The translations under genes were made by a program, and so were the position numbers. Under the pieces are notes generated by a model. It saw only the letters and a program-made list of their open reading frames with translations. It did no database searches and was not told the DNA's origin. Shown piece by piece: positions 29,977 through 40,462 of a stretch of DNA of 64,000 nt; positions within the stretch are counted from its first letter, which is position 1; every line of letters starts with the position of its first letter. Source of the DNA: an uncultured Actinomycetales bacterium (GTDB lineage Bacteria; Actinomycetota; Actinomycetes; S36-B12); contig CAJXYI010000001.1 in the NCBI GenBank assembly GCA_913063435.1, positions 77,246 through 141,245 of the forward strand, in the 5' to 3' direction.

Positions 29977-31128
29977 ATGGCGCGCAAGTCCAAGGCTGAC
30001 AAGGCAGCGGTTCGACCACCCGACCCGCAGCCGTATGCGACTCCGGACCTGGTGTCGCCGCAGATGCGGCGGATCGGCGGATATGCCTGGCGTCTATCGG
30101 CGATCGGCGTCGTCGGGTTCGGCCTGCTCCTGCTTCTGGGTCCCGTCCAGGCCCTGGCGTTGGCGATCTTCTTCGCACTCCTCGTCGCCGCATGGCTGAT
30201 GCCCCTGACCAATTGGATGGCCCGGGTCATGCCCAGGGGGCTCGCCGCCACGATCGCCATCTTGTTGTTCATCGTCGCCGTCGGTCTGGTGGTGTTCTTC
30301 ATCGGGCTGTCCACGGCGAGTCAGTGGGAGGGCATCGCCGCGGCGTTCCGACAGGGCGTGACCGACCTCGAGGTCTGGCTGCGTGAGGGGCCGTTCCAGG
30401 TCACCGACGCCCAGGTCACCGAGGCGTACGAAGCCGTCGTGAACTTCATCCGCGAATCGGGCGGAGACATCGCCCTGGGCGTACTGTCCGGGCTGGGTAG
30501 CGTCCTCGGACTGGGCACCGCACTCGCCGGTGGCCTGTTCGTACTCGTCTTCGCGCTCTCCCAGCCCGAGCGCATGCTCACGTGGTTCATCGGCTGGATG
30601 CCGCGGCGCAACCGTCAGGTGATCGAGGACTCGGTGCGCATCGCGTGGGAGGGCTTCTCGCAGTACTCCCAGGGAGTCGTGCTCGTCGCGATCACGAATG
30701 CGACCGTGGTGACGATCGTGCTGCTCATCATGGGGGTGCCGCTGGCGATTCCGCTGGGCATCATCGTGTTCTTCGGTGCGTTCATTCCCTATATCGGTGC
30801 ACCGATCGCGATGTTCCTCGCGGCATTCGTCGCTTTGGTGACCAACGGCCCGCTAGCCGGCGCTTTGGTCGTAGTGCTGATCTTCATCATCGGACAGCTC
30901 GAGGGCAATGTGCTCCAGCCGCTCATCATGGGCAAGACGGTCAACCTTCATCCGATGGCGATCGTGTTGGTGACGGCTGCGGGCGCGGCCTACTTCGGGT
31001 TGATCGGTGCCCTGATCGGCGTACCACTCGCTGCCGGCGTGTATGGGGTGATGAAGTACCTGCGTGGCGATCCGGTTCCCCTGGACGAACCGGAGCCATC
31101 CGCAGAGAACGACGGTAATCAGGACTAA
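29977..31128 (+). CDS. AI-2E family transporter (UPF0118/PerM-like)
   Basis: ORF-track start 29917. ATG 29977 is preferred because of the GGGAGG 7 nt upstream. About 8 TM helices with typical AI-2E length and layout. Confidence 0.6.
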   Translation: MARKSKADKAAVRPPDPQPYATPDLVSPQMRRIGGYAWRLSAIGVVGFGLLLLLGPVQALALAIFFALLVAAWLMPLTNWMARVMPRGLAATIAILLFIVAVGLVVFFIGLSTASQWEGIAAAFRQGVTDLEVWLREGPFQVTDAQVTEAYEAVVNFIRESGGDIALGVLSGLGSVLGLGTALAGGLFVLVFALSQPERMLTWFIGWMPRRNRQVIEDSVRIAWEGFSQYSQGVVLVAITNATVVTIVLLIMGVPLAIPLGIIVFFGAFIPYIGAPIAMFLAAFVALVTNGPLAGALVVVLIFIIGQLEGNVLQPLIMGKTVNLHPMAIVLVTAAGAAYFGLIGALIGVPLAAGVYGVMKYLRGDPVPLDEPEPSAENDGNQD

Positions 31129-31165
31129 CAGCAGCTCGTTAGTCCGCTTTAGCGTCGTTTTCGGC
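31122..31165 (+). terminator. candidate intrinsic terminator after the AI-2E gene
   Basis: GGACTAAC (31122-29) pairs with GTTAGTCC (31138-45), with an 8-nt loop, followed by T-rich GCTTTAGCGTCGTTTTCGG. The stem is short and only half GC. Confidence 0.3.
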
Positions 31166-31180
31166 CGTAGGACAGCCGTG

Positions 31181-31894
31181 TCATGGTGCCAGTGTGCCGA
31201 TGCGGAAGACCTCCAACCAGCCTTCGGCCTCGGCTTGGCCATCGTGTGCGCCGTTGAACGACCCGGAGGCATCGCGACCGCACATCCCGATGACCGCTCC
31301 GGCGCCAGCGGGATGCCGGGAAATGAATCCCGTGAGGTCGTAGACCGTGCCGTCGACGACCGACCAGCAGTCCTCCGATGAGGCGTGCTCGGCAACCTCC
31401 GCGAGCGTGATCGGTCCGGTGATGGATGCGGCGCTGGCCGGTGGTTGACGGGCGGCCTCCATCTGCTCCTTCCAGACCGCCTCGGCACCCGAGTGTCCCG
31501 CCAGGTAGGTCAACACCATGATTCCCGCACCGGCGCTCACCGCGGCGACATCGGCTGCCCGTTTCGCCCATGTCCACCCTTGAAGATGCCAGGTGAAGAT
31601 CCACAGTCCGGTGATCGCGGAGAACGCCATCGCAGCGATAGTGAGGTAGTTGCCCCAGTCGGCATGGTCCGCGGGGAGTCCGACGGCGGCGGAGAGGGAG
31701 TCGCCGGATACCTTCGCGAGGTAGGAACCGATCGCACCGAGGACGGTCCCGCCGAGGATGACCCATTGGAAACTGTTGCGCCAGCGGGTGACGAAACTGG
31801 TCACGATCATGCCGATGGCGGCCAGGGGGAGCAGGACGACGACACCATGCACGACCAGTGGGTGCAGGGGAAGGCCACCGAGTAGTTCAGGCAT
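31181..31894 (-). CDS. membrane protein (DUF2231-like, ~4 TM) fused to a C-terminal cytochrome b5-like heme-binding domain
   Basis: ORF-track 347 aa trimmed to ATG 31894 (MPELLGGLPLHPLVVHG...). The C-terminus ITLAEVAEHASSEDCWSVVDGTVYDLTGFISRHPAGAGAVIGMCGRDASGSFNGAH aligns with the cytochrome b5 signature (HPGG ... G.DAT..F...H). Confidence 0.7.
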   Translation of the reverse strand: MPELLGGLPLHPLVVHGVVVLLPLAAIGMIVTSFVTRWRNSFQWVILGGTVLGAIGSYLAKVSGDSLSAAVGLPADHADWGNYLTIAAMAFSAITGLWIFTWHLQGWTWAKRAADVAAVSAGAGIMVLTYLAGHSGAEAVWKEQMEAARQPPASAASITGPITLAEVAEHASSEDCWSVVDGTVYDLTGFISRHPAGAGAVIGMCGRDASGSFNGAHDGQAEAEGWLEVFRIGTLAP

Positions 31895-32095
31895 GGGCGA
31901 GCCCTTCCGTCCGGGTCGTCGTATCCTCCCCTGGCAGGTGGAGGAGCTCCCACAGCGTGAGGCGTGTTTCACGGTAGTCGACGTCCTTGAGGCTGTCCCG
32001 AGCCCGGGTGGTGTCCTCGAGGAGTACGGTGTGAACGTCAAGGGCGTGAACGTCGAATGAGTAGGCGATGAGGCGGCGATGCCCCGACGGCGGCG

Positions 32096-32180
32096 GGGGT
32101 GCCGCTGGTGATGCGCACGAGTGCGTCGTCGACGATCGTCCGGCTCGGAGATGGGTGGCCGACCGGTGCGGCGCCCCCTG
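32096..32180 (-). pseudogene. degenerate remnant of a ybaK-like gene 3' end
   Basis: The minus-strand frame reads ...AGGAAPVGHPSPSRTIVDDALVRITSGTPAAVGAS. The intact copy reads GGVAPIGHPSPIRTIVDFDL[~25 aa]ELVRITGGTPADVGA. Nucleotide blocks match at about 24/26 and 41/51, with a ~75-nt internal deletion. No start codon or upstream YbaK sequence is present. Confidence 0.7.
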
Positions 32181-32230
32181 CGGTTACCGCAACTCGTCTC
32201 GACGGACTTGTGACGGCGTACCATGGGGTC

Positions 32231-32395
32231 ATGACCCTGCCGGCTCGCTCCACGTGGGATTCCGCTCGCGACCTCGTGGGAGACCAGCCGCCCTCGGTTG
32301 ACGACGTGCCGACGACCTTGGCCGGTGAGCCCCTGGATACCGCAGACAAGGTTCGCGACTTCCTCGAACGCCTCGCCGCCTCACGAAGCTCTTGA
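32231..32395 (+). CDS. small hypothetical protein (54 aa), candidate partner of the downstream nucleotidyltransferase
   Basis: ATG 32231 lies inside ORF-track 32099..32395; the upstream part is antisense to the ybaK remnant. The stop is 6 nt before the next start. Codon third positions are mostly G/C. No known motif. Confidence 0.35.
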   Translation: MTLPARSTWDSARDLVGDQPPSVDDVPTTLAGEPLDTADKVRDFLERLAASRSS

Positions 32396-32401
32396 TGTTT
32401 C

Positions 32402-32938
32402 GTGAGCGATCAGGACTCGGCAGGCGCTTTCGATCCTGATCGCATCCTTGCCGTCCTCGACGCGCACGGAGTCGCGTACGTGCTCGTCGGCGGTGTCGCT
32501 GCCAGGGCTCACGGCGCGAGCCGAGCAACAGCTGATATCGATTGCGTGCCGTCCACCGATGCGGTGAACCTGGAACGCCTTGCAGAGGCGCTCCGTGAAA
32601 TCGGGGCGCGATTGCGGGTCGCTGGCATGTCGGACGCCGAGGCGAAGGCGCTTCCGTTGCGGCTTGATGGTGTGACGCTCGCGGGGTTCGGGAGCTCGAC
32701 ATGGATGACGGACGCCGGGCCGCTGGATCTGCTCGTGGAATTGCGGGACCCCTCCGGAGGTCGTCACCCCTACGAGGATCTCGTCAGTCGTGCGTCCGAT
32801 ATCGCTGTGGGCGGCGTGATCGTGAGTATCGCTTCGCTGGGCGACATCGTTGCTTCGAAGCAGTTTGCGGCACGACCCAAGGACATAGAGGCTCTCCCAG
32901 AGTTGCTCGAGCTGATAGAAAGCCTCGACGTCGACTAG
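32402..32938 (+). CDS. minimal nucleotidyltransferase-fold protein (178 aa)
   Basis: YVLVGGVAARAHGASRATADIDCV fits the pol-beta-superfamily G[GS]-x(9-13)-D-x-D pattern. The C-terminal KQFAARPKDIEAL resembles the K/R..KD motif I recall in AbiEii/DUF1814-type NTases. Confidence 0.6.
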   Translation: MSDQDSAGAFDPDRILAVLDAHGVAYVLVGGVAARAHGASRATADIDCVPSTDAVNLERLAEALREIGARLRVAGMSDAEAKALPLRLDGVTLAGFGSSTWMTDAGPLDLLVELRDPSGGRHPYEDLVSRASDIAVGGVIVSIASLGDIVASKQFAARPKDIEALPELLELIESLDVD

Positions 32939-33414
32939 GCACCAACGTCGGCTGGAGTGCCGCCGGTGATGCGCACGAGCTCATCGAACGTCGTCGGGAA
33001 GACGTAGTGCGGATGGCCGCCCGCTGCCCACACCTCGTCGTACTTGCCTAGGTCGAAGTCGACAATCGTGCGAATCGGAGAGGGATGGCCGATCGGCGCG
33101 ACGCCGCCGATGGCGAACCCGGTTGCCTGACGGACGTCATCGGCGTTCGCTTTCCCGATCTCCACACCGTCGAGCAATGCCGACAGCTTGGACGTATCGA
33201 CGCGGTGACCCCCCGAGGCCACGACCAGCACTGCCTGGCCATCAGCCATGAAGATCAACGACGACGCGATTTGCGCGGGAACGATGCCGAGCGCCTCGGC
33301 GGCCTCTTTCGCCGTGCGCGCGGAGTCATCGAGGCGACGAACCTGACCGGGGACACCCTCGGCGGCAAGTGCCTCGCGCACGCGGATGACCGACTCCTGC
33401 TCCTGATCTGCCAT
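32935..33414 (-). CDS. YbaK/EbsC-family aminoacyl-tRNA editing (trans-deacylase) domain protein
   Basis: ORF-track 178 aa trimmed to ATG 33414. SLIFMADGQAVLVVASGGHRVD..., FAIGGVAPIGHP and a YbaK-like C-terminus. Confidence 0.7.
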   Translation of the reverse strand: MADQEQESVIRVREALAAEGVPGQVRRLDDSARTAKEAAEALGIVPAQIASSLIFMADGQAVLVVASGGHRVDTSKLSALLDGVEIGKANADDVRQATGFAIGGVAPIGHPSPIRTIVDFDLGKYDEVWAAGGHPHYVFPTTFDELVRITGGTPADVGA

Positions 33415-33627: not shown

Positions 33628-36396
33628 GTGCTCGCTGCCTCTGTGGCGCTCATGGGAGCGGGGGCGTTGATCGCGCCGCTCCTCGTTCGATACCTGGGTC
33701 GATACACCGGATATCCGCTTGCCCTCATCTTCTTGATCTCCGGAGTCCTGCTCCTCATTGATGCCCCCGAGGTGATGAGTGGAGCCACGGTCACCGAGTC
33801 CTGGCAGTGGGTGGAAACCTTCGACGTCGAGTTCACCCTGCGCCTGAACGGCTTGTCATTGCTCTTCGCAGTGCTCGTCCTCGGCGTAGGAGTGCTCGTC
33901 CTCAGCTACGCGCCGCAGTATCTCGACCCGAGCTATGAAGTGGGTCGCCTCTATACGGTGTTGACGCTGTTCGCGGGCGCGATGCTCGGCCTGGTTCTCG
34001 CCGGTGATCTCATCCTGCTCGTCGTGTTCTGGGAGATCACGACGCTGAGCAGCTTCCTGCTCGTTGCCGGCAGTGGCACCACAGGAGTCTGGCCCGCCGT
34101 TCGTGCCCTCGTCATCACCGGTATCGGCGGTCTCGCCCTGGTCGGTGCCGTGGTGATGCTCGCGCTGCGAACCCAGACCACGAATATCGAGCAAGCGATC
34201 GCCCTCGCCCCCGAAGCACTGACCGCGACCGATATCGCCATCATCGGACCGCTGATCGTCATCGCGGCCTTCACCAAATCAGCCCAACTGCCCTTCCACT
34301 TCTGGCTACCCGGAGCGATGGTCGCGGTCACCCCCGTGAGCGCCTATCTGCATGCGGCCACCCTGGTGAAGGCCGGCATCTATCTGCTGTTGCTGTTCTC
34401 CCCACTGTTCACCGAGGTCGCCGCGTGGCACATCACCCTGATGGGTATCGGTCTGGCCACCGCGGTCTTCGGAGCATTCCAGGCGCTGCGCCAATGGGAC
34501 CTGAAATCCCTGCTCGCCTATTCGACGGTCAGCCAGTTGGGCACGATGGTCGCCCTGGTCGGTGTCGGGACATCCGCATCGCTGGCCGCCGCCGCCTTGC
34601 TCGTCGCCGCGCACGCGTTATTCAAAGCGACGCTGTTCATGCTGGTCGGCATCGTCGATCGCGAGGCGGGCAGCCGCAATCTCGCCGATCTGTCCGGGCT
34701 GTGGCGTGCGATGCCGATCACCGCCGGATTGACCGGACTGGCTGCCATGTCGATGGCCGGATTCCCGCCACTTGTGGGATTCGTCGCCAAGGAGGAATCC
34801 TTCTACGCATTCCTCGACACACCCTCGGCTTCCTGGACTGCTGATCAGGCATGGCTCGGTGTCGCGGCAGCGGCGATCGCGGTGATCGGGGCCGCACTCA
34901 CCCTGGCATACAGCGCTCGCATCTTCTTCGGTGCGTTCTTCGGTCCGTTGACCCAGCGCAATCTGTACGAGCCGTCCTGGTTGTTCCTCGCACCAGCGGT
35001 CGTCCCCGCCATCGCCGGGCTGGTCCTCGGCGTGGCCCCGTGGCTGCTCAATGGAATCATCGATCGCACCAGCCAGGATGTCGGATTCCCCCTGGTGCAA
35101 TCCGATCTCAGCCTCTGGCATGGCCTCAGCGTGGCCCTCGGATTATCGATCATCGCGATCACCCTCGGTTTGATCATCCACTTCCGTCGCGAATCGCTCC
35201 TTCGCTGGCTCGGTCAGGACACCCCGCGCTCCATCGCTCCGGAGATCTTCGACCGCATCTGGTATGCGACCTTGGATCTGGGAGCGCGCGTCGGTCGCAC
35301 AGCGCACTCGGCATCGGTGGGCGTGCAACTCAGTGGTGTCGCAATCCTGCTCCTGGCCCTGACCGTCGGTGGATTCGTTCTCATTCCCGGCTCGACAGAC
35401 GGGCTTGGTCCGGTTCTTCCCGACGTCATGCAACCGGTGGATGTTGCGATCCTCATCCTGCTGGTTCCGGCCGTCATCCTGCTGGCCCGTGCGCGAACCG
35501 CGATCGCGGCGCTCGTCCTCGCCGGTTTCGTCGGCCTGATCATCTCGCTGTGGCTGCTGTTGCTCGGAGCTCCCGATGTCGCGCTCACTCTGCTGCTCGT
35601 GGAGATTCTGACAGTGGTGGTCGCCGCCCCGGTGCTGTCTCGACTTCCTGCGCATCGAGGCCTCGGCAGCTCGACGCGAGCGGCGGTCAGTGCCGTCGTC
35701 GTGGGTGCGATCAGCGGATTGGCCGTATGGGTGTTCACCGGCCGACGAGAGGCTTCATCCCTTTCGGACTACTTCCTGGCCGAAGCCGAAGGACTCACCG
35801 GTGGGACGAACGTGGTCAATACGATCCTGGTGGATTTCCGAGGCTTGGACACCCTGGGTGAGATCACCGTGCTGTTCGCCGCAGCGCTCGGTCTGCTCGC
35901 CGCTGGGGTGATCACCGTGAAGGGTCGCGGTGAGGGTGTCCTCGGCCAGGGGGAGCAGGCGGTCCTCAGGGTCGGCTCCCGAGTCATCATCCCGCTGCTG
36001 CTCATCGCAGCCGCGGTCTTGTTCTGGCGGGGACACGACGAACCCGGCGGCGGTTTCATCGCGGGCCTCGTCGCAGGCTCCGCTCTCGCGGTCGCTGGGA
36101 TCTCCGGCGTCCACGTCCGCCTACCCAGGCCGAGGGTGATCCTGGCCCTGGGACTGGGTATCGCGTTGGCATCTGGAGTTCTGGGTCAGGTTCTCGGGGG
36201 AACCTTCCTCGAGCCGTTCAAGTTCGATGTCCCTGTCCTGGGATCCTTGACGACCTCGTTGATCTTCGATCTGGGAGTGTTCCTCGTCGTGGTGGGCCTG
36301 GTTCGCACAGCTCTGCAGCGCCTCGACGGACTCGATTCCGATACCGAGGAAGACGAGCATCACCATGACCCCGATCCGGTGCGGGTGCTGCCATGA
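33628..36396 (+). CDS. mrpA: Na+/H+ antiporter subunit A (fused MrpA/MrpB, group-2 Mrp)
   Basis: 922 aa polytopic NuoL-like protein. First gene of a six-gene overlapping operon. Confidence 0.85.
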   Translation: MLAASVALMGAGALIAPLLVRYLGRYTGYPLALIFLISGVLLLIDAPEVMSGATVTESWQWVETFDVEFTLRLNGLSLLFAVLVLGVGVLVLSYAPQYLDPSYEVGRLYTVLTLFAGAMLGLVLAGDLILLVVFWEITTLSSFLLVAGSGTTGVWPAVRALVITGIGGLALVGAVVMLALRTQTTNIEQAIALAPEALTATDIAIIGPLIVIAAFTKSAQLPFHFWLPGAMVAVTPVSAYLHAATLVKAGIYLLLLFSPLFTEVAAWHITLMGIGLATAVFGAFQALRQWDLKSLLAYSTVSQLGTMVALVGVGTSASLAAAALLVAAHALFKATLFMLVGIVDREAGSRNLADLSGLWRAMPITAGLTGLAAMSMAGFPPLVGFVAKEESFYAFLDTPSASWTADQAWLGVAAAAIAVIGAALTLAYSARIFFGAFFGPLTQRNLYEPSWLFLAPAVVPAIAGLVLGVAPWLLNGIIDRTSQDVGFPLVQSDLSLWHGLSVALGLSIIAITLGLIIHFRRESLLRWLGQDTPRSIAPEIFDRIWYATLDLGARVGRTAHSASVGVQLSGVAILLLALTVGGFVLIPGSTDGLGPVLPDVMQPVDVAILILLVPAVILLARARTAIAALVLAGFVGLIISLWLLLLGAPDVALTLLLVEILTVVVAAPVLSRLPAHRGLGSSTRAAVSAVVVGAISGLAVWVFTGRREASSLSDYFLAEAEGLTGGTNVVNTILVDFRGLDTLGEITVLFAAALGLLAAGVITVKGRGEGVLGQGEQAVLRVGSRVIIPLLLIAAAVLFWRGHDEPGGGFIAGLVAGSALAVAGISGVHVRLPRPRVILALGLGIALASGVLGQVLGGTFLEPFKFDVPVLGSLTTSLIFDLGVFLVVVGLVRTALQRLDGLDSDTEEDEHHHDPDPVRVLP

Positions 36397-36746
36397 GCCT
36401 CGCGATCGCCGTAGCGCTTCTCACCGGGGCGGGGACGTGGCTGCTCGTTCGCGGCGGAGCCGTGCGACTCATCCTGGGCTTCATCCTCCTCGGCCATGCT
36501 GCGAATCTGGTGATCATCGCTGCAGGTGGCACTGATCGCCGAGTCGCACCCATCGTTGATGGGAGCACACCACTCGACGCCGCCGCTGATCCGCTTCCTC
36601 AGGCGTTCGTGCTCACCGCCATCGTGATCACCTTCGGTGTCACGGTGTATCTGCTCGGTCTCGTCGCGCGAATCGCCAAGAAATCACCGAGCAGCGAGCT
36701 CGAAGAGGAATTCGATTCCGATGATGAGGGGGTGGGTAACCGATGA
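36393..36746 (+). CDS. mrpC: Na+/H+ antiporter subunit C
   Basis: 117 aa NuoK-like protein. ATGA overlap with mrpA. Confidence 0.8.
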   Translation: MSLAIAVALLTGAGTWLLVRGGAVRLILGFILLGHAANLVIIAAGGTDRRVAPIVDGSTPLDAAADPLPQAFVLTAIVITFGVTVYLLGLVARIAKKSPSSELEEEFDSDDEGVGNR

Positions 36747-38320
36747 TGCTCGATACCCAAGCCCTCTCCGTCTGGGTGATTCCCGGTGTTTTCGCTGTGC
36801 CACTCATCGCGGCGGTGGTGACGTTCCTTATTGGTGCGAACAAGACCAGTCGGGCGATCGGGTTGCTCGTGCCGGTTGCGGTCTTCGCAGCTTCAGTGCT
36901 CTTGGTCATCGCCACGATGGAGGGCGAGGTCATCGTCTCCCAGGTTGCCGGTTGGCAAGGGGGAGTGGCGATCGCCTTCATCGCAGACCTGCTCAGTGCC
37001 CTGATGCTCGGTGTCTCCGCCCTCCTGGTGTTCTCCAGCATGGTGTTCGCATATGCGGCGGGGCTTGGCATGGACCGATGGTTCGTGCCCTCGGTACTGA
37101 TCATGACCTCGGGCGTCTACGGCGCTTACCTCACCGGTGACCTGTTCAACCTCTTCGTCATGGTCGAGGTGGCGCTGCTTCCGTCCTACATCCTGATGTC
37201 ACGAAGTGGGACCCTGACCGCACTTCGATCCGCCCGCTTGTATCTCATCGTGAATCTCACTGCCTCGACCTTGTTCCTCGCGGGACTCGGAGTGGTCTAC
37301 GGCGTCACCGGCACGGTCAACATGGCCGCGCTCGCCGGGCTCGGTGCGCTCCCGGTCGTCGCCATCGCCACCGGGGTGGTCGTCGTCGCACTGATGCTCA
37401 AGGCGGCCCTGGTGCCCGCACACAGTTGGCTGCCGGCGACGTATCCGTACACCTCACCGGCCGTCACGGCACTGTTTTCAGGACTGCTGACCAAGATCGG
37501 CGTCTATGCGCTCGTGCGGATTATCTCGTTGATCTACGAACCTGGTCAGATCCTGACCACCGCGGTGATCGTGATTTGCGTGCTGAGCATGATCATCGGC
37601 GTGCTTGGTGCACTCGGTGAGGGCACGATCCGGGGCGTGCTGTCCTTCCACATGATCAGTCAGGTGGGCTACATCCTGGTCGGAGTGGTCCTGGCAGGAG
37701 CCGTGGGCTTCGCCGCTGTGGTGTTCTATCTCATCCACCACACGATCGTGAAGACCTCACTGTTCCTCACCGGAGGAACAGTCGAGCACGAAGAGGGCAC
37801 CGGTGTCATCAAGAGGCTCGGTGGATTGGCTCGTGCTCATCCGATCGCGGCCACGGCGTTCTTCTTTGCTGCCCTGTCCTTGACCGGTATCCCGCCGTTC
37901 TCCGGTTTCTGGGCGAAACTCGGTGTCCTCACCGCGGCAGCAGAGGCAGGCGCCGCGGTGGTCTTCGTCGTGGCACTGGTCGTGAGTGTCGGGACCCTGG
38001 GTTCGATGCTCAAACTCGGCACGGGTGTGTTCTGGGGCCAGCCCAAGACCATCGATGCAGAGGAGGAGACCCCCAGCGACGTCAGCGTCGAGCCTGTCGT
38101 CGCAGCAGGAACGGCACTGTCGGTGGCCTCGGCAGTCGAGGCGCCACCGGTCACCAAGTGGCGTCCTCTTCTCGTCATACCCGGTTTCGCGCTAGCCCTG
38201 GTCAGTTTGGGAATCGGGCTGTTCCCCGAATGGCTGTTGAGCCTCGCGCACACCTCCGGGGAGTCCCTGGCTGACCCGGTGGCCTATGTCGAAGCTGTGC
38301 TGGGTGGGAGGGCGCCATGA
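36743..38320 (+). CDS. mrpD: Na+/H+ antiporter subunit D
   Basis: 525 aa NuoM/N-like protein. ATGA overlap with mrpC. Confidence 0.85.
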   Translation: MMLDTQALSVWVIPGVFAVPLIAAVVTFLIGANKTSRAIGLLVPVAVFAASVLLVIATMEGEVIVSQVAGWQGGVAIAFIADLLSALMLGVSALLVFSSMVFAYAAGLGMDRWFVPSVLIMTSGVYGAYLTGDLFNLFVMVEVALLPSYILMSRSGTLTALRSARLYLIVNLTASTLFLAGLGVVYGVTGTVNMAALAGLGALPVVAIATGVVVVALMLKAALVPAHSWLPATYPYTSPAVTALFSGLLTKIGVYALVRIISLIYEPGQILTTAVIVICVLSMIIGVLGALGEGTIRGVLSFHMISQVGYILVGVVLAGAVGFAAVVFYLIHHTIVKTSLFLTGGTVEHEEGTGVIKRLGGLARAHPIAATAFFFAALSLTGIPPFSGFWAKLGVLTAAAEAGAAVVFVVALVVSVGTLGSMLKLGTGVFWGQPKTIDAEEETPSDVSVEPVVAAGTALSVASAVEAPPVTKWRPLLVIPGFALALVSLGIGLFPEWLLSLAHTSGESLADPVAYVEAVLGGRAP

Positions 38321-38676
38321 GCCCTGCGATCAAGCGACTGTGGGGACTGCCGTGGTTGGCCGTGTGGGCCACGGGAGCGATTGCCGCGGCTTCCGCTCAG
38401 GTTGCGCGCGACATCATTGCACCGTCATCGAAACTGGCACCGGGCATCGTGATCGTCGCATTGCGGATGCCCACGAACACGGAGGTCGCCGTGTGGATGA
38501 GCCTTGTCAACCTCACGCCGGGAACCCTGGTCGTGGAGATCTCCGACGCCCTCGACGAGGCCTGGGTGCACAGTCTGTACGCAGGTGATCCGCAAGCCCT
38601 CAAAGACGATCTGAATGCCCTGCAGGATCGGGTGATCCGCTCCTTCGGTGCCGAACCGGTTCGGGAGGCGCCGTGA
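38317..38676 (+). CDS. mrpE: Na+/H+ antiporter subunit E
   Basis: 119 aa. Assigned by position in the operon and ATGA overlap with mrpD. Shorter than many MrpE proteins. Confidence 0.65.
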   Translation: MSPAIKRLWGLPWLAVWATGAIAAASAQVARDIIAPSSKLAPGIVIVALRMPTNTEVAVWMSLVNLTPGTLVVEISDALDEAWVHSLYAGDPQALKDDLNALQDRVIRSFGAEPVREAP

Positions 38677-38972
38677 AAGACATTCCTACCTGGGTCATCG
38701 ACGCGAGTCTCATCTTCGTCGCACTGGGCGCGATCGCCGCCATCTATCGTGCGGCTTCAGGCCCCACCCGCGCCGATCGTGTGGTCGCTGCTGAACTCGG
38801 ATTCATCGCAGCGGTCGGTGGCTTGCTCCTCGTTGCTCTCCGGCTTGATGAGTCGATCCTGTTCGATTTCGCCCTGATCGCAGTCCTCATCGGGTTCCTC
38901 ACCACGATCGGGTTGGCACGCCTGGTGACGGCGCGAACCATGGGCAAAACCGACGGGGAACGGGAGTCGTGA
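38673..38972 (+). CDS. mrpF: Na+/H+ antiporter subunit F
   Basis: 99 aa, 3 TM helices, overlapping starts and stops. Confidence 0.75.
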   Translation: MKDIPTWVIDASLIFVALGAIAAIYRAASGPTRADRVVAAELGFIAAVGGLLLVALRLDESILFDFALIAVLIGFLTTIGLARLVTARTMGKTDGERES

Positions 38973-39307
38973 TGGTCGTCATCGTCTCGATTCTTGCCAT
39001 CTTCGGTTCAGCACTGGTTGCGTTGGCCGGACTGGGATTGTTCCGTCTTCCCGACCCGTTGACCCGCGCGAGTGCCGTGTCGAAAGCTGCTGCGCTGGGG
39101 CTGCTGCTCATCATCGTCGCTGCCATCATCGCGGACTGGTCGGTGCGCTCTGTGATCGTTCTGGTCCTCGTATTGATCGCCCACTTGGTGACAGTGCCCT
39201 TGTCGGGGCTGGCCCTTGCGCGTGCGTCCTATCAATCGGGAACCGCGCGGCCACCGGTCACAACCGTGGATGAACCTGCACAGAGAGAACGCCAACAGCG
39301 CGATTGA
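38969..39307 (+). CDS. mrpG: Na+/H+ antiporter subunit G
   Basis: 112 aa, 3 TM helices, last gene of the operon. Confidence 0.75.
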   Translation: MMVVIVSILAIFGSALVALAGLGLFRLPDPLTRASAVSKAAALGLLLIIVAAIIADWSVRSVIVLVLVLIAHLVTVPLSGLALARASYQSGTARPPVTTVDEPAQRERQQRD

Positions 39308-39313
39308 GTCGCG

Positions 39314-40462
39314 CTAGTCGTCGATGCGGTGGATGCTGCGCACGAAGAACACAATCAAACCGGTGGTGACGAGCAGCGCGGCCAGACCGAAGTAGGTCGG
39401 TTGCAGCCCGAAGCGTTCGACCGCGAGCCCGGTGAACAGCATCGCGACCGGTGGAGCGGCATAGAAGATGGACAACTGGACGCCGAACACCCGGCCCTGT
39501 GCATCCGGGGCCACTCGTCGCTGAACGATCGTGGTCAGCAGCGGATTCATCGGACCCCACGCGAGGCCGAGCACGAAGGCGGCGATGATCATGATCGGTA
39601 GCGGTGGCAGTAGTGACAGTGGAACGATCGAGACTATCGTCCCTGCCAGGACCAACCGCGCCAGCGTGAGGCGACGCATCCGGGCTGACAACCAGCCGTA
39701 GGCGAAGGACCCGACTACCGATCCACCCGCCAGAGCAGCGATGACGATTCCCAGGCCCCAGGGCATATCCAGGCCCTCGAAATATGCCGGCAGGATAACC
39801 GCCTCGGTCGGCAGATAGACCGCGGCGAGGACGAGGATGGCGATCGTCAGCGCGCGCAACGGCACGTCGTTCCAGATGACCCTCACGCCGAGGACTGCCT
39901 GGGACCAGAATCCCGACTGCTCCTCGCCCGCATCCAGTGCTGCCAGGCGTGCGGCTTGGCCGGAGTCTCTCACTCTCAGAACGCCGATGAGGAGAGCGGC
40001 CGTGGTGAAGAGAGCGAAGGGTACCCAGAATGCGTTGATCGCACCGATGCTCGCGATGAGCACCGCCGCGAACAGCGGTCCCAGAGTCCAGCCGATCGCG
40101 AAGATGCCCTCATGGATGCCGTTGAGGCGATCGGTGTCGAAGTTGGACTCACGTGCGACATCGGCGATGAGCGCCTTGCGGCCGGTGTAACCGGCCGGAT
40201 CGAATACCGCGCCGATCACCGCCAGCGTGATGATGGCGGGCAGTGACAGGCCGAACAGCCATGCGGTGATGGGAAACGCTGCGACGGAGATCGCCGAGGC
40301 GATATCCGAGGCGATGCTGACGAAGCGCCGTCCGAGTCGATCGACGCCCCAGCCGGCCAAGGGTGAGGCGAGCGCTCCGGGGACCGACGAGATCGCAGCC
40401 ACCAATCCCGCAGCCGCCACCGATCCTGTCGATTCGAGCACCAGCCATGGGATCGTGAGCAT
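39314..40462 (-). CDS. MFS transporter (5' end probably extends to about 40576; see findings)
   Basis: 382 aa from the first ATG. The in-frame upstream sequence still encodes an MFS-like TM1, so the true start is unresolved. Confidence 0.7.
   Translation of the reverse strand: MLTIPWLVLESTGSVAAAGLVAAISSVPGALASPLAGWGVDRLGRRFVSIASDIASAISVAAFPITAWLFGLSLPAIITLAVIGAVFDPAGYTGRKALIADVARESNFDTDRLNGIHEGIFAIGWTLGPLFAAVLIASIGAINAFWVPFALFTTAALLIGVLRVRDSGQAARLAALDAGEEQSGFWSQAVLGVRVIWNDVPLRALTIAILVLAAVYLPTEAVILPAYFEGLDMPWGLGIVIAALAGGSVVGSFAYGWLSARMRRLTLARLVLAGTIVSIVPLSLLPPLPIMIIAAFVLGLAWGPMNPLLTTIVQRRVAPDAQGRVFGVQLSIFYAAPPVAMLFTGLAVERFGLQPTYFGLAALLVTTGLIVFFVRSIHRIDD

What the first reader, a model, noticed from the sequence alone, without database searches (positions are those of the whole stretch)
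32096..33113. Direct duplication of the ybaK 3' end brackets a ~0.75-kb insert
The last ~160 nt of the intact ybaK-like gene (about 32953-33113) reappear in the same orientation at 32096-32180, roughly 80% identical with a ~75-nt internal deletion. The protein-level match is GHPSPxRTIVD...LVRITxGTPAxVGA. Everything between the copies is the small-ORF + nucleotidyltransferase pair on the opposite strand. This is the footprint expected when an element integrates into the 3' end of a gene, brings a replacement 3' end and displaces the original. No integrase or transposase remains, so the cassette looks like an old, stranded insertion between ybaK and the cytochrome b5 gene.
Basis: seen in the sequence. 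Interest (0 to 1): 0.6.

Follow-up and report, generated by a model that had tools for sequence, protein, structure and literature searches.

The report
Gene-cassette insertion footprint in ybaK's end
A 0.93-kb two-gene cassette with no integrase was spliced into the tail of the ybaK gene, supplying a new tail and leaving the old one as a decayed copy, and related freshwater actinobacteria stack up to four or more such cassettes at this same spot, somewhat like an integron.

Summary
The ybaK 3' end (32939-33108) recurs in direct orientation at 32081-32178. The two pieces are 85% and 80% identical, with a 72-nt in-frame deletion and a lost stop codon.

In relatives, ybaK is followed by arrays of up to 5 copies of its last ~170 nt. 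These copies are separated by cassettes of 0.2-2.9 kb (32 cassettes, median ~0.8 kb).

Every displaced copy starts at one core, GGCGGCGT (codons ~103-105). Each is preceded by a conserved non-coding ~20-nt motif (CGGGTTGCAGAAACCACAGG), and homology stops at the stop codon.

A filled/empty pair (L007/L008) and a three-way comparison (L134/L086/L087) place the crossover in or next to the GT of the core. They also show that the mobile unit is core, new 3' end, cargo, then motif.

The same cassettes sit in hosts whose ybaK 5' halves are only 66% identical. No recombinase was found in the window or in the roughly 170 related loci.

The window's cargo is a small ORF plus a DUF6036 nucleotidyltransferase, a toxin-antitoxin-like pair that also occurs away from ybaK. 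The window copy is old and decayed.

The closest known analogues are tandem accretion of integrase-less elements (CIMEs), tycheposon islands and integrons.

The parts
32935..33414 (-). Intact ybaK-like gene (159 aa; aminoacyl-tRNA trans-editing domain)
   Evidence: Pfam PF04073 tRNA_edit, E 2.1e-24, covering residues 31-148. TIGR00011 YbaK_EbsC scores below its cut-off. ORF list.
33089..33111 (-). Recombination core inside ybaK: ATCGGCGGCGTCGCGCCGATCGG. It contains GGCGGCGT (33101-33108). The inferred crossover dinucleotide GT is at 33101-33102.
   Evidence: All displaced copies in relatives begin here. The crossover is bracketed to GT by L007/L008 and to GGCGGCG|T by L134/L086/L087.
32935..33100 (-). 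Replacement 3' end of ybaK, from the core to the stop codon; inferred to have arrived with the cassette
   Evidence: Identity between the window and L001 (same cassette) rises along the gene. It is 79% in the ybaK 5' 300 nt, 76% just after the core, 87% in the middle and 91% near the stop. The cassette interior is 91.6%. In a recent event in relatives the whole segment travels with the downstream cassette.
32402..32938 (+). Cargo gene 2: nucleotidyltransferase (178 aa, DUF6036/DUF2204). Its stop overlaps the ybaK stop (CTAG).
   Evidence: Pfam PF19502, 27.8 bits (cut-off 23.6), and PF09970. Weak PADLOC AbiEii match, E 3.4e-4. 384 homologues were found, some carrying PF08843 AbiEii.
32231..32395 (+). 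Cargo gene 1: small ORF (54 aa), the conserved partner upstream of the NTase
   Evidence: It is co-conserved with the NTase in L001, L004, L010 and L135. The pair is also called together in non-ybaK loci L150, L151 and L154. It has no Pfam hit.
32177..32196 (-). Degenerate copy of the cassette-end motif ('P-arm'): CGAGTTGCGGTAACCGCAGG
   Evidence: It matches the consensus GTTGCAGAAACCACAGGCGGCGT with 5 mismatches. Such motifs occur almost only at array junctions and there always in ybaK orientation. Three 5-mismatch hits elsewhere look like chance. Sequence.
32077..32176 (-). Displaced original ybaK 3' end (pseudogene remnant). The core has decayed to GGGGGCGC, there is a 72-nt in-frame deletion, and the stop codon is now TCG.
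   Evidence: Relaxed codon-position pattern.
31181..31894 (-). Downstream flank: DUF2231-cytochrome b5 fusion gene
   Evidence: Pfam PF00173 and PF09990. The same remnant-to-b5 junction is present in the related metagenome contig L136 at ~90% identity and in L081.

Best explanation
A circular cassette of about 0.93 kb recombined with the chromosomal ybaK gene (window ~32172-33101). The cassette consists of a recombination core, a substitute ybaK 3' end of 167 nt, a small ORF plus a DUF6036 nucleotidyltransferase, and a ~20-nt cassette-end motif. The crossover lay at a short core (GGCGGCGT, codons ~103-105). This kept ybaK intact, now using the incoming 3' end, and pushed the resident 3' end downstream, where it has since decayed.

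The event is one instance of a lineage-wide system. In related uncultured freshwater Actinomycetota (Nanopelagicales-type MAGs), the ybaK 3' end is a hotspot where small cassettes lacking any integrase are added one in front of another. The result is an array of cassettes separated by ybaK 3' copies. A recombinase encoded elsewhere most likely does the cutting and joining. Afterwards, homologous recombination or gene conversion among the repeated ybaK segments scrambles them.

Shown: the repeat, the sharp boundaries, filled versus empty sites, horizontal spread of cassettes, and the position of the crossover in two recent events. Inferred: the circular intermediate, the recombinase acting in trans, and a toxin-antitoxin-like, array-stabilising role for the NTase pair.
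For: - **Repeat significance:**
- **Arrays:** ybaK 3' copies follow ybaK in 13 of 80 genome loci, 5 metagenome loci and further contigs, with up to 5 copies (L087).
- **Filled versus empty site:** L007 vs L008 switch exactly at the core.
- **Three-way test:** the L134 junction matches L087's cassette end up to GGCGGCG. It then matches L086's ybaK 3' end plus its downstream cassette at 167 of 168 positions.
- **Boundaries:** homology starts at the core and ends at the stop codon.
- **Cassette-end motif:** a conserved ~20-nt motif ends cassettes with unrelated cargo. It occurs almost only at junctions, there always in one orientation; three weak hits elsewhere look like chance.
- **Horizontal transfer:** the P450 cassette is 95% identical between hosts whose ybaK 5' parts are 66% identical. 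Lipo297 is 97% vs 90%, and the NTase cassette 91.6% vs 79%.
- **Window lineage:** relative L136 has the same small-ORF, motif, remnant and b5 junction, but a full-length remnant and another cassette.
- **NTase pair:** it is a mobile two-gene module also found away from ybaK, once in a defence-type island.
Against: No recombinase was found. None appeared in the window, in the roughly 170 related loci, or as a ybaK-fragment or motif carrier in IMG/VR. No free or circular form was seen.

For older cassette pairs the ybaK segment on the left does not co-travel as a whole. For example, Lipo297 cassettes are 97% identical but their left segments are 80% identical. Each third of a segment has a different nearest relative. 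A purely site-specific model therefore needs added gene conversion.

The crossover was mapped from only two recent events. Most loci are MAG or metagenome contigs. A chimeric join at L134 is unlikely, because the shared stretch at the switch is under 10 nt.
Confidence: 0.75

Rival explanations
1. There is no dedicated recombinase. Cassettes flanked by ybaK 3' copies loop out by RecA-dependent recombination between neighbouring copies. They are transferred as DNA and re-enter by single-crossover (Campbell-type) homologous recombination with any ybaK 3' copy. In this view the repeated gene end is simply portable homology.
For: No recombinase was found anywhere. The ybaK segments are strongly mosaic, with different nearest relatives for each third. 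In several cassette pairs identity rises gradually towards the cassette rather than stepping at the core. Displaced copies keep a coding-like substitution pattern, as expected if they are repeatedly re-used.
Against: In both recent events the switch lies at the very edge of the homologous stretch, within GGCGGCG|T. Homologous recombination there would have almost no homology on one side. A ~20-nt non-coding motif just outside the homology is conserved across cassettes with unrelated cargo. This model does not explain how the first duplication arose, or how new cargo comes to sit between a stop codon and that motif.
Confidence: 0.17
2. The repeat is a local tandem duplication or rearrangement of the ybaK 3' end, unrelated to mobile DNA. 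The NTase pair arrived separately.
For: The window alone shows no recombinase and no terminal inverted repeats.
Against: The same cassette, with the same post-stop sequence and the same end motif, sits between ybaK copies in unrelated hosts and in different array slots. Filled and empty sites exist. Many different cassettes share the same boundaries.
Confidence: 0.03
3. The downstream ybaK 3' copies are a functional store of alternative C-terminal ends. They would be swapped into ybaK to vary the enzyme, like silent cassettes or orphan toxin C-termini.
For: Most displaced copies are intact in frame, with a synonymous-biased divergence pattern.
Against: The copies encode nearly the same peptide: 18 invariant columns and ~72% mean column identity. 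There is therefore no variation to select. The spacers are unrelated cargo genes in both orientations. The window copy is a dead remnant.
Confidence: 0.03
4. The similarity is due to chance in GC-rich DNA.
For: None beyond the high GC content (64.9%).
Against: The alignment score lies about 13 sd above shuffles. Two collinear BLASTN hits have E 4.5e-8 each, and these are the only such hits in 64 kb. A profile of ybaK 3' ends finds the remnant at E 2.5e-8.
Confidence: 0.01

Closest known systems
Tandem accretion of integrative elements and cis-mobilizable elements (CIMEs), e.g. ICESt1/ICESt3-related islands at the 3' end of fda in Streptococcus thermophilus (reviewed in PMC5704250)
   Same: Integration occurs in the 3' end of a protein-coding gene and restores the reading frame. 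The flanking direct repeats contain the gene end. Newcomers integrate into the att site next to the gene, so older elements are pushed outward. There are elements without integration genes that keep attL and attR.
   Different: Here the units are tiny (0.2-2.9 kb, one to four genes). None of the 32 cassettes delimited, nor any other locus examined, carries an integrase, relaxase or remnant of one. No parent element with an integrase for this site was found. The target (ybaK) and the hosts (uncultured freshwater Actinomycetota) are different.
Tycheposon-built genomic islands of Prochlorococcus (bioRxiv 10.1101/2020.12.28.424599)
   Same: These are streamlined planktonic bacteria in which repeated integration at one site pushes older elements further into the island. 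This leaves scattered partial copies of the target and degenerated elements that carry niche-adaptive cargo.
   Different: Tycheposons target tRNA genes, and complete copies carry tyrosine recombinases and replication modules. Here the target is a protein-coding gene and no element with a recombinase was seen.
Integrons (gene cassettes with attC sites, captured by IntI at attI)
   Same: Both are arrays of small, mostly one- or two-gene cassettes without their own recombinase. The same cassettes appear in different orders in different genomes. New cassettes enter at the proximal end. Toxin-antitoxin-like cassettes are frequent.
   Different: There is no intI next to the array. The repeat is the coding 3' end of ybaK plus a 20-nt motif, not an imperfect palindrome. 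The junctions do not fold better than shuffled sequence, with z from -0.5 to +2.4. Cassette genes lie in both orientations, so they are not driven by one promoter.
AbiEii / DUF6036-type nucleotidyltransferase two-gene modules (type IV/VII toxin-antitoxin and abortive-infection systems)
   Same: The window cargo is a minimal nucleotidyltransferase preceded by a small, tightly linked partner gene. The pair is mobile and occurs in defence-type neighbourhoods.
   Different: The window protein matches DUF6036 above the cut-off but matches AbiEii only weakly. The partner is far shorter than AbiEi. No toxicity data exist.

Membership tests
Site-specific integrative element inserted in the 3' end of a gene (integrase-less, CIME-like) | Direct repeats at both ends that contain the 3' part of the target gene | tested here: met
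   32939-33108 vs 32081-32178 in the window. The same architecture is seen in about 20 related loci.
Site-specific integrative element inserted in the 3' end of a gene (integrase-less, CIME-like) | The target gene stays intact because the element supplies a substitute 3' end | tested here: met
   The full-length tRNA_edit domain is retained. L007's in-gene end differs from the empty allele L008 from the core onward yet is in frame.
Site-specific integrative element inserted in the 3' end of a gene (integrase-less, CIME-like) | An empty site exists in related genomes, and the crossover falls at one defined core | tested here: met
   L008 vs L007/L088. L134/L086/L087 switch within GGCGGCG|T. All displaced copies start at the same core.
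Site-specific integrative element inserted in the 3' end of a gene (integrase-less, CIME-like) | A cognate recombinase exists, in cis or on a related complete element that uses the same att site | tested here: not met
   No recombinase motif or Pfam integrase/resolvase/transposase was found in the window or in the roughly 170 loci. There were no hits in IMG/VR. Plasmid hits were ordinary ybaK genes. Whole genomes could not be searched.
Site-specific integrative element inserted in the 3' end of a gene (integrase-less, CIME-like) | Excision as a circle and re-integration | not testable with these tools
   This needs reads, PCR or experiments. The only indirect evidence is that the same cassettes occur in different slots and hosts.
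Integron | An intI tyrosine recombinase gene with attI and the Pc promoter adjacent to the array | tested here: not met
   The genes upstream of ybaK are MFS, P450, a Beta-CASP hydrolase, a P-type ATPase or the Mrp antiporter.
Integron | Cassettes bounded by attC sites, which are imperfect palindromes that fold as single strands | tested here: not met
   The repeat is a coding segment plus a 20-nt motif. Eight junction strands fold no better than shuffles.
Integron | An array of small cassettes lacking their own recombinase, reassorted between genomes | tested here: met
   32 cassettes, median ~0.8 kb, with families shared in different orders.
Tycheposon | Integration into tRNA genes; complete elements carry a tyrosine or large serine recombinase plus a replication module | tested here: not met
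   The target is a protein-coding gene, and no recombinase or replication genes occur in any cassette.
YbaK/ProX-type trans-editing protein (Pfam tRNA_edit) | A match to PF04073 above the gathering score over the whole domain | tested here: met
   86.4 bits against a cut-off of 25.5, profile positions 3-122 of 123. The equivalog model TIGR00011 is below its cut-off (52.6 vs 153), so the exact substrate class is not assigned.
AbiEii-type toxin nucleotidyltransferase | A match to the AbiEii model (PF08843 / PADLOC AbiEii) and a cognate AbiEi-like antitoxin | tested here: inconclusive
   Pfam gives DUF6036 and DUF2204 only. PADLOC AbiEii scores E 3.4e-4 over 57 residues. Some homologues carry PF08843. 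The partner is a 54-aa ORF with no family.

The most novel reading that the evidence does not exclude
The ybaK 3' end of these uncultured freshwater Actinomycetota may be the docking site of an integron-like gene-capture platform. Small cassettes without a recombinase would be inserted, excised and reshuffled by an unlinked and still unidentified recombinase. Each cassette consists of a substitute ybaK end, cargo and a 20-nt end motif. The coding end of a housekeeping gene would play the role of the recombination site, and toxin-antitoxin-like NTase cassettes would stabilise the array. The central GT, bracketed on both sides in one event, leaves open a serine-recombinase-type 2-bp crossover. 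That would be unusual for an integration that restores the target gene.
Probability: 0.35. Interest if true: 0.75.

Novelty: new variant of a known kind. Interest (0 to 1): 0.55.

Why it matters
If the array system is real, it gives a concrete and sequence-defined mechanism for how streamlined, uncultured freshwater actinobacteria exchange small adaptive gene sets. These bacteria carry few classical mobile elements. The cargo seen includes efflux pumps, P450s, redox and thiol-handling proteins, regulators, and toxin-antitoxin or defence-type pairs.

The core and the 20-nt end motif are simple search keys. They can be used to catalogue cassettes in metagenomes and to hunt for the responsible recombinase. 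For genome annotation, the result explains the orphan ybaK-like fragments and the frequent assembly breaks downstream of ybaK.

For this particular window the biological consequence is modest. It holds one old, decayed insertion carrying a probable toxin-antitoxin-like pair.

Tried and rejected
1. **Phage or satellite carriers of the att site.** IMG/VR was scanned with a profile of ybaK C-terminal fragments and with two versions of the end motif. Nothing was found.
2. **Plasmid carriers.** A TBLASTN of the 60-aa C-terminus against PLSDB gave one un-annotated 80% hit in Nonomuraea gerenzanensis. This turned out to be the ordinary full-length ybaK of a chromosome filed as a plasmid.
3. **Recombinase next to the arrays.** I ran six-frame regex scans for tyrosine and serine recombinase motifs over all loci. 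I ran Pfam on upstream genes and on window ORFs I could not recognise. I also read precomputed Pfam annotation for about 40 further places. None was found. The regex is crude.
4. **Test that the left ybaK segment co-travels with each cassette.** This was inconclusive for old cassette pairs because the segments are mosaic. It was clear only for the recent L134/L086 event.
5. **attC-like folding of the junction.** There was no signal.
6. **Whether the NTase is tied to ybaK.** It is not. The pair also occurs in unrelated neighbourhoods.
7. **Literature.** Searches for ybaK as an integration site, and for islands in Nanopelagicales, found no description of this system.
8. **The dyad symmetry ATCGG-N10-CCGAT centred on GT in the window core.** I do not rely on it. 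It follows largely from the repeated Ile-Gly codons and the self-palindrome CCGATCGG.
Full report
**1. The observation**

The ybaK-like gene lies on the minus strand at 33414-32935 (159 aa). It matches Pfam tRNA_edit at E 2.1e-24.

Its 3' part recurs once, in the same orientation, about 860 nt downstream. BLASTN gives two hits: 32939-32979 vs 32081-32121 (85%) and 33058-33108 vs 32128-32178 (80%). Each has E 4.5e-8, and nothing comparable occurs elsewhere in the 64 kb.

A local alignment scores 71.5, against 21.0 +/- 3.8 for shuffled sequence. A nucleotide profile built from 57 ybaK 3' ends also finds the remnant.

The remnant lacks 72 nt (24 codons) and its stop codon has become TCG. Its differences from intact copies are spread over all codon positions: 22%, 30% and 54%. 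It is therefore a decaying pseudogene piece.

Between the two copies, on the other strand, lie two genes. One is a 54-codon ORF (32231-32395). The other is a 178-aa nucleotidyltransferase (32402-32938; DUF6036 at 27.8 bits against a cut-off of 23.6, plus DUF2204). Its stop codon overlaps the ybaK stop.

Downstream lies a DUF2231-cytochrome b5 gene. Upstream lies the Mrp antiporter operon.

**2. Relatives show arrays, not a single accident**

A scan of one genome per species returned 80 ybaK loci. The closest are 79-88% identical at protein level and come from uncultured freshwater Actinomycetota, mostly labelled Candidatus Nanopelagicales.

In 13 of these loci the gene, or a contig end, is followed by further copies of only its last ~57-65 codons. 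The spacers are 0.2-2.9 kb. Metagenome contigs add more cases. L087 has the intact gene plus four displaced copies within 9 kb.

In total 32 spacers ('cassettes') were delimited, with a median of about 0.8 kb. Their cargo is heterogeneous:
- TetR regulators alone, with MMPL pumps, or with SRPBCC proteins;
- a cytochrome P450;
- CcdA/DsbD-type and thioredoxin-like proteins;
- alpha/beta hydrolases and DUF4345;
- lipoproteins and several proteins with no family;
- the NTase pair, repeatedly.

Genes lie in both orientations.

**3. Boundaries**

Every displaced copy begins at the same place, the sequence GGCGGCGT encoding Gly-Gly-Val (codons ~103-105).

Immediately upstream of each copy is a ~20-nt non-coding motif with consensus CGGGTTGCAGAAACCACAGG. 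It is conserved whatever cargo precedes it. Across all fetched DNA, the motif occurs at array junctions and there always in ybaK orientation. The only exceptions are three 5-mismatch hits that look like chance.

At the other end, similarity between copies stops at the stop codon. The bases after the stop are specific to the cassette family and are shared by members of that family. The NTase cassettes of the window, L001 and L135 are an example.

The window has a degenerate motif at 32177-32196 and a decayed core at 32171-32176.

**4. Direction and position of the crossover**

L007 and L008 share all neighbours on both sides. L008 lacks L007's 2.9-kb TetR+MMPL cassette.

L007's in-gene 3' end departs from L008 exactly after GCCATTGGCGGGGT. 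L007's displaced copy matches L008's resident end from the core onward. The first ~65 nt are identical, and identity then falls to 93% and 84%. Marker bases on either side bracket the exchange to the GT of the core.

A second, independent case is the metagenome contig L134. Its left part, including the end motif, equals the end of L087's fourth cassette (98%). From GGCGGCGT onward it equals L086's ybaK 3' end and the cassette behind it, at 167 of 168 positions.

The unit that moves is therefore core, substitute 3' end, stop codon, cargo, then end motif. The stretch shared at the switch is under 10 nt, which makes an assembly chimera unlikely.

**5. Cassettes move between hosts**

Cassette interiors are much more alike than their hosts:

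| Cassette | Cassette identity | Host ybaK 5' 300 nt identity |
|---|---|---|
| P450 | 95% | 66% |
| Lipoprotein (Lipo297) | 97% | 90% |
| Window-type NTase (window vs L001) | 91.6% | 79% |
| Hydrolase | 83% | 65% |

The same families appear in different slots and orders.

For the window, identity to L001 climbs along the gene. It is 79% in the 5' part, 76% just after the core, 87% in the middle, 91% near the stop and 91.6% in the cassette. This fits an incoming 3' end that has since been partly overwritten.

**6. The window lineage itself**

Contig L136 is 85-90% identical to the window across the small ORF, the end motif, the displaced copy and the start of the b5 region. There the displaced copy is full length. 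The NTase gene has been deleted, and a different cassette (a 130-aa ORF) sits upstream.

So the NTase insertion next to b5 is old and shared, and the content at this site still varies.

In one ENA assembly the contigs carrying the identical ybaK and b5 proteins end and begin at the remnant. This is what repeats or strain heterogeneity would produce.

**7. After insertion: mosaicism**

In older cassette pairs the flanking ybaK segments are only 70-88% identical on both sides. Each third of a segment has a different nearest relative.

Displaced copies are mostly intact in frame: 20 of 22 have no gap or stop. Their divergence by codon position (0.12/0.09/0.40) matches that of functional copies (0.14/0.09/0.47).

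I read this as frequent gene conversion or homologous recombination among the repeats, with displaced copies re-used when proximal cassettes are lost. This observation is the main support for the rival 'homologous recombination only' model. I rate that model lower for two reasons. Both datable events break at the very edge of the homology, and the adjacent non-coding motif is conserved.

**8. The missing recombinase**

No tyrosine or serine recombinase motif and no Pfam integrase, resolvase or transposase was found. The search covered the window, the cassettes, the genes upstream of ybaK, and about 40 further Pfam-annotated places.

IMG/VR holds neither ybaK-fragment carriers nor the motif. 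Plasmid hits are ordinary ybaK genes. The junctions do not fold like integron attC sites.

The enzyme is therefore inferred to act in trans, and its class is open. The GT bracketed on both sides in one event would suit a serine recombinase. Restoration of the target gene through a shared 3' segment is typical of tyrosine integrases.

**9. The cargo in the window**

The NTase family is common in environmental Actinomycetota, with 384 homologues. Some carry the AbiEii model. The window protein matches PADLOC AbiEii only weakly and has no solved relative by sequence.

The pair of small ORF plus NTase is conserved as a unit. It also occurs away from ybaK, once among a retron-type reverse transcriptase, a PRTase-CE protein and helicase genes. 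In a distant lineage (L149) it again abuts a divergent ybaK that has a degenerate downstream copy.

A toxin-antitoxin or abortive-infection-like role is the best guess, and such a pair could stabilise the array as TA cassettes do in large integrons. This is inference only.

**10. Comparison with known systems, and verdict**

The architecture matches tandem accretion of integrative elements and integrase-less CIMEs at the 3' end of a gene (PMC5704250). It also matches the island-building model described for tycheposons (10.1101/2020.12.28.424599). It resembles integrons in cassette size, reassortment and the absence of a recombinase in the cassettes. It fails the defining integron features: intI, attC and a common promoter.

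I found no description of ybaK as such a site.

For the window, the finding is a correct reading of an old, decayed cassette insertion. The wider system is a new variant of a known kind and is worth following up, chiefly to identify the recombinase.

Noticed in passing
window 33628-39307 (Mrp operon) and 39314-40462 (MFS): In most relatives an MFS transporter gene lies directly upstream of ybaK. In the window a six-gene Mrp Na+/H+ antiporter operon (5.7 kb) sits between the MFS homologue and ybaK. The upstream side of ybaK is therefore also rearranged in this lineage.
   Followed up: partly
L081 (start) and L082 (end), ENA sample ERZ27241910: Two contigs carry the identical b5 and ybaK/NTase proteins. 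One begins and the other ends at the displaced ybaK remnant. This assembly break fits repeat-induced or strain-level heterogeneity at the site.
   Followed up: no
L157-L166 (e.g. L157 10477-11122) and L086 6471-7144: One abundant species has ybaK abutting a SOUL haem-binding gene with no cassette, so it looks 'empty'. Yet a truncated ybaK fragment (profile positions 128-194) lies just beyond SOUL. The conserved downstream neighbour may therefore be an old, fixed cassette.
   Followed up: partly
L136 685-710: A secondary deletion removed an end motif, a ybaK copy and the whole NTase gene. It fused a 130-aa-ORF cassette to the small ORF of the NTase cassette, and there is a short tandem duplication (TGCTCGCTCATGAAAGATC x2) at the joint.
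   Followed up: partly
L080 4985-6194: Here the first ybaK copy lacks the 5' two-thirds of the gene, and a thioredoxin-domain gene on the other strand overlaps the position. Three further displaced copies and cassettes follow. The array can evidently persist after ybaK itself is inactivated.
   Followed up: no
L010 7432-7471, L087 9912-9945, L080 6177-6183: The ybaK copy in front of the recurrent 175-aa-ORF cassette ('C15', no Pfam family) has GCT in place of the stop codon. When this cassette sits next to the gene, as in L003, YbaK would end slightly later.
   Followed up: no
window 31102-31165: A 28-nt inverted repeat (79% complementary, 8-nt loop) lies in the 52-nt gap between the convergent AI-2E permease and b5 genes. 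It looks like a bidirectional terminator.
   Followed up: no
L150 3006-13304: One homologue of the NTase pair lies in a defence-island-like stretch. The stretch holds a reverse transcriptase (RVT_1), PRTase-CE, Hypoth_Ymh, a 1578-aa helicase and Toprim proteins.
   Followed up: no
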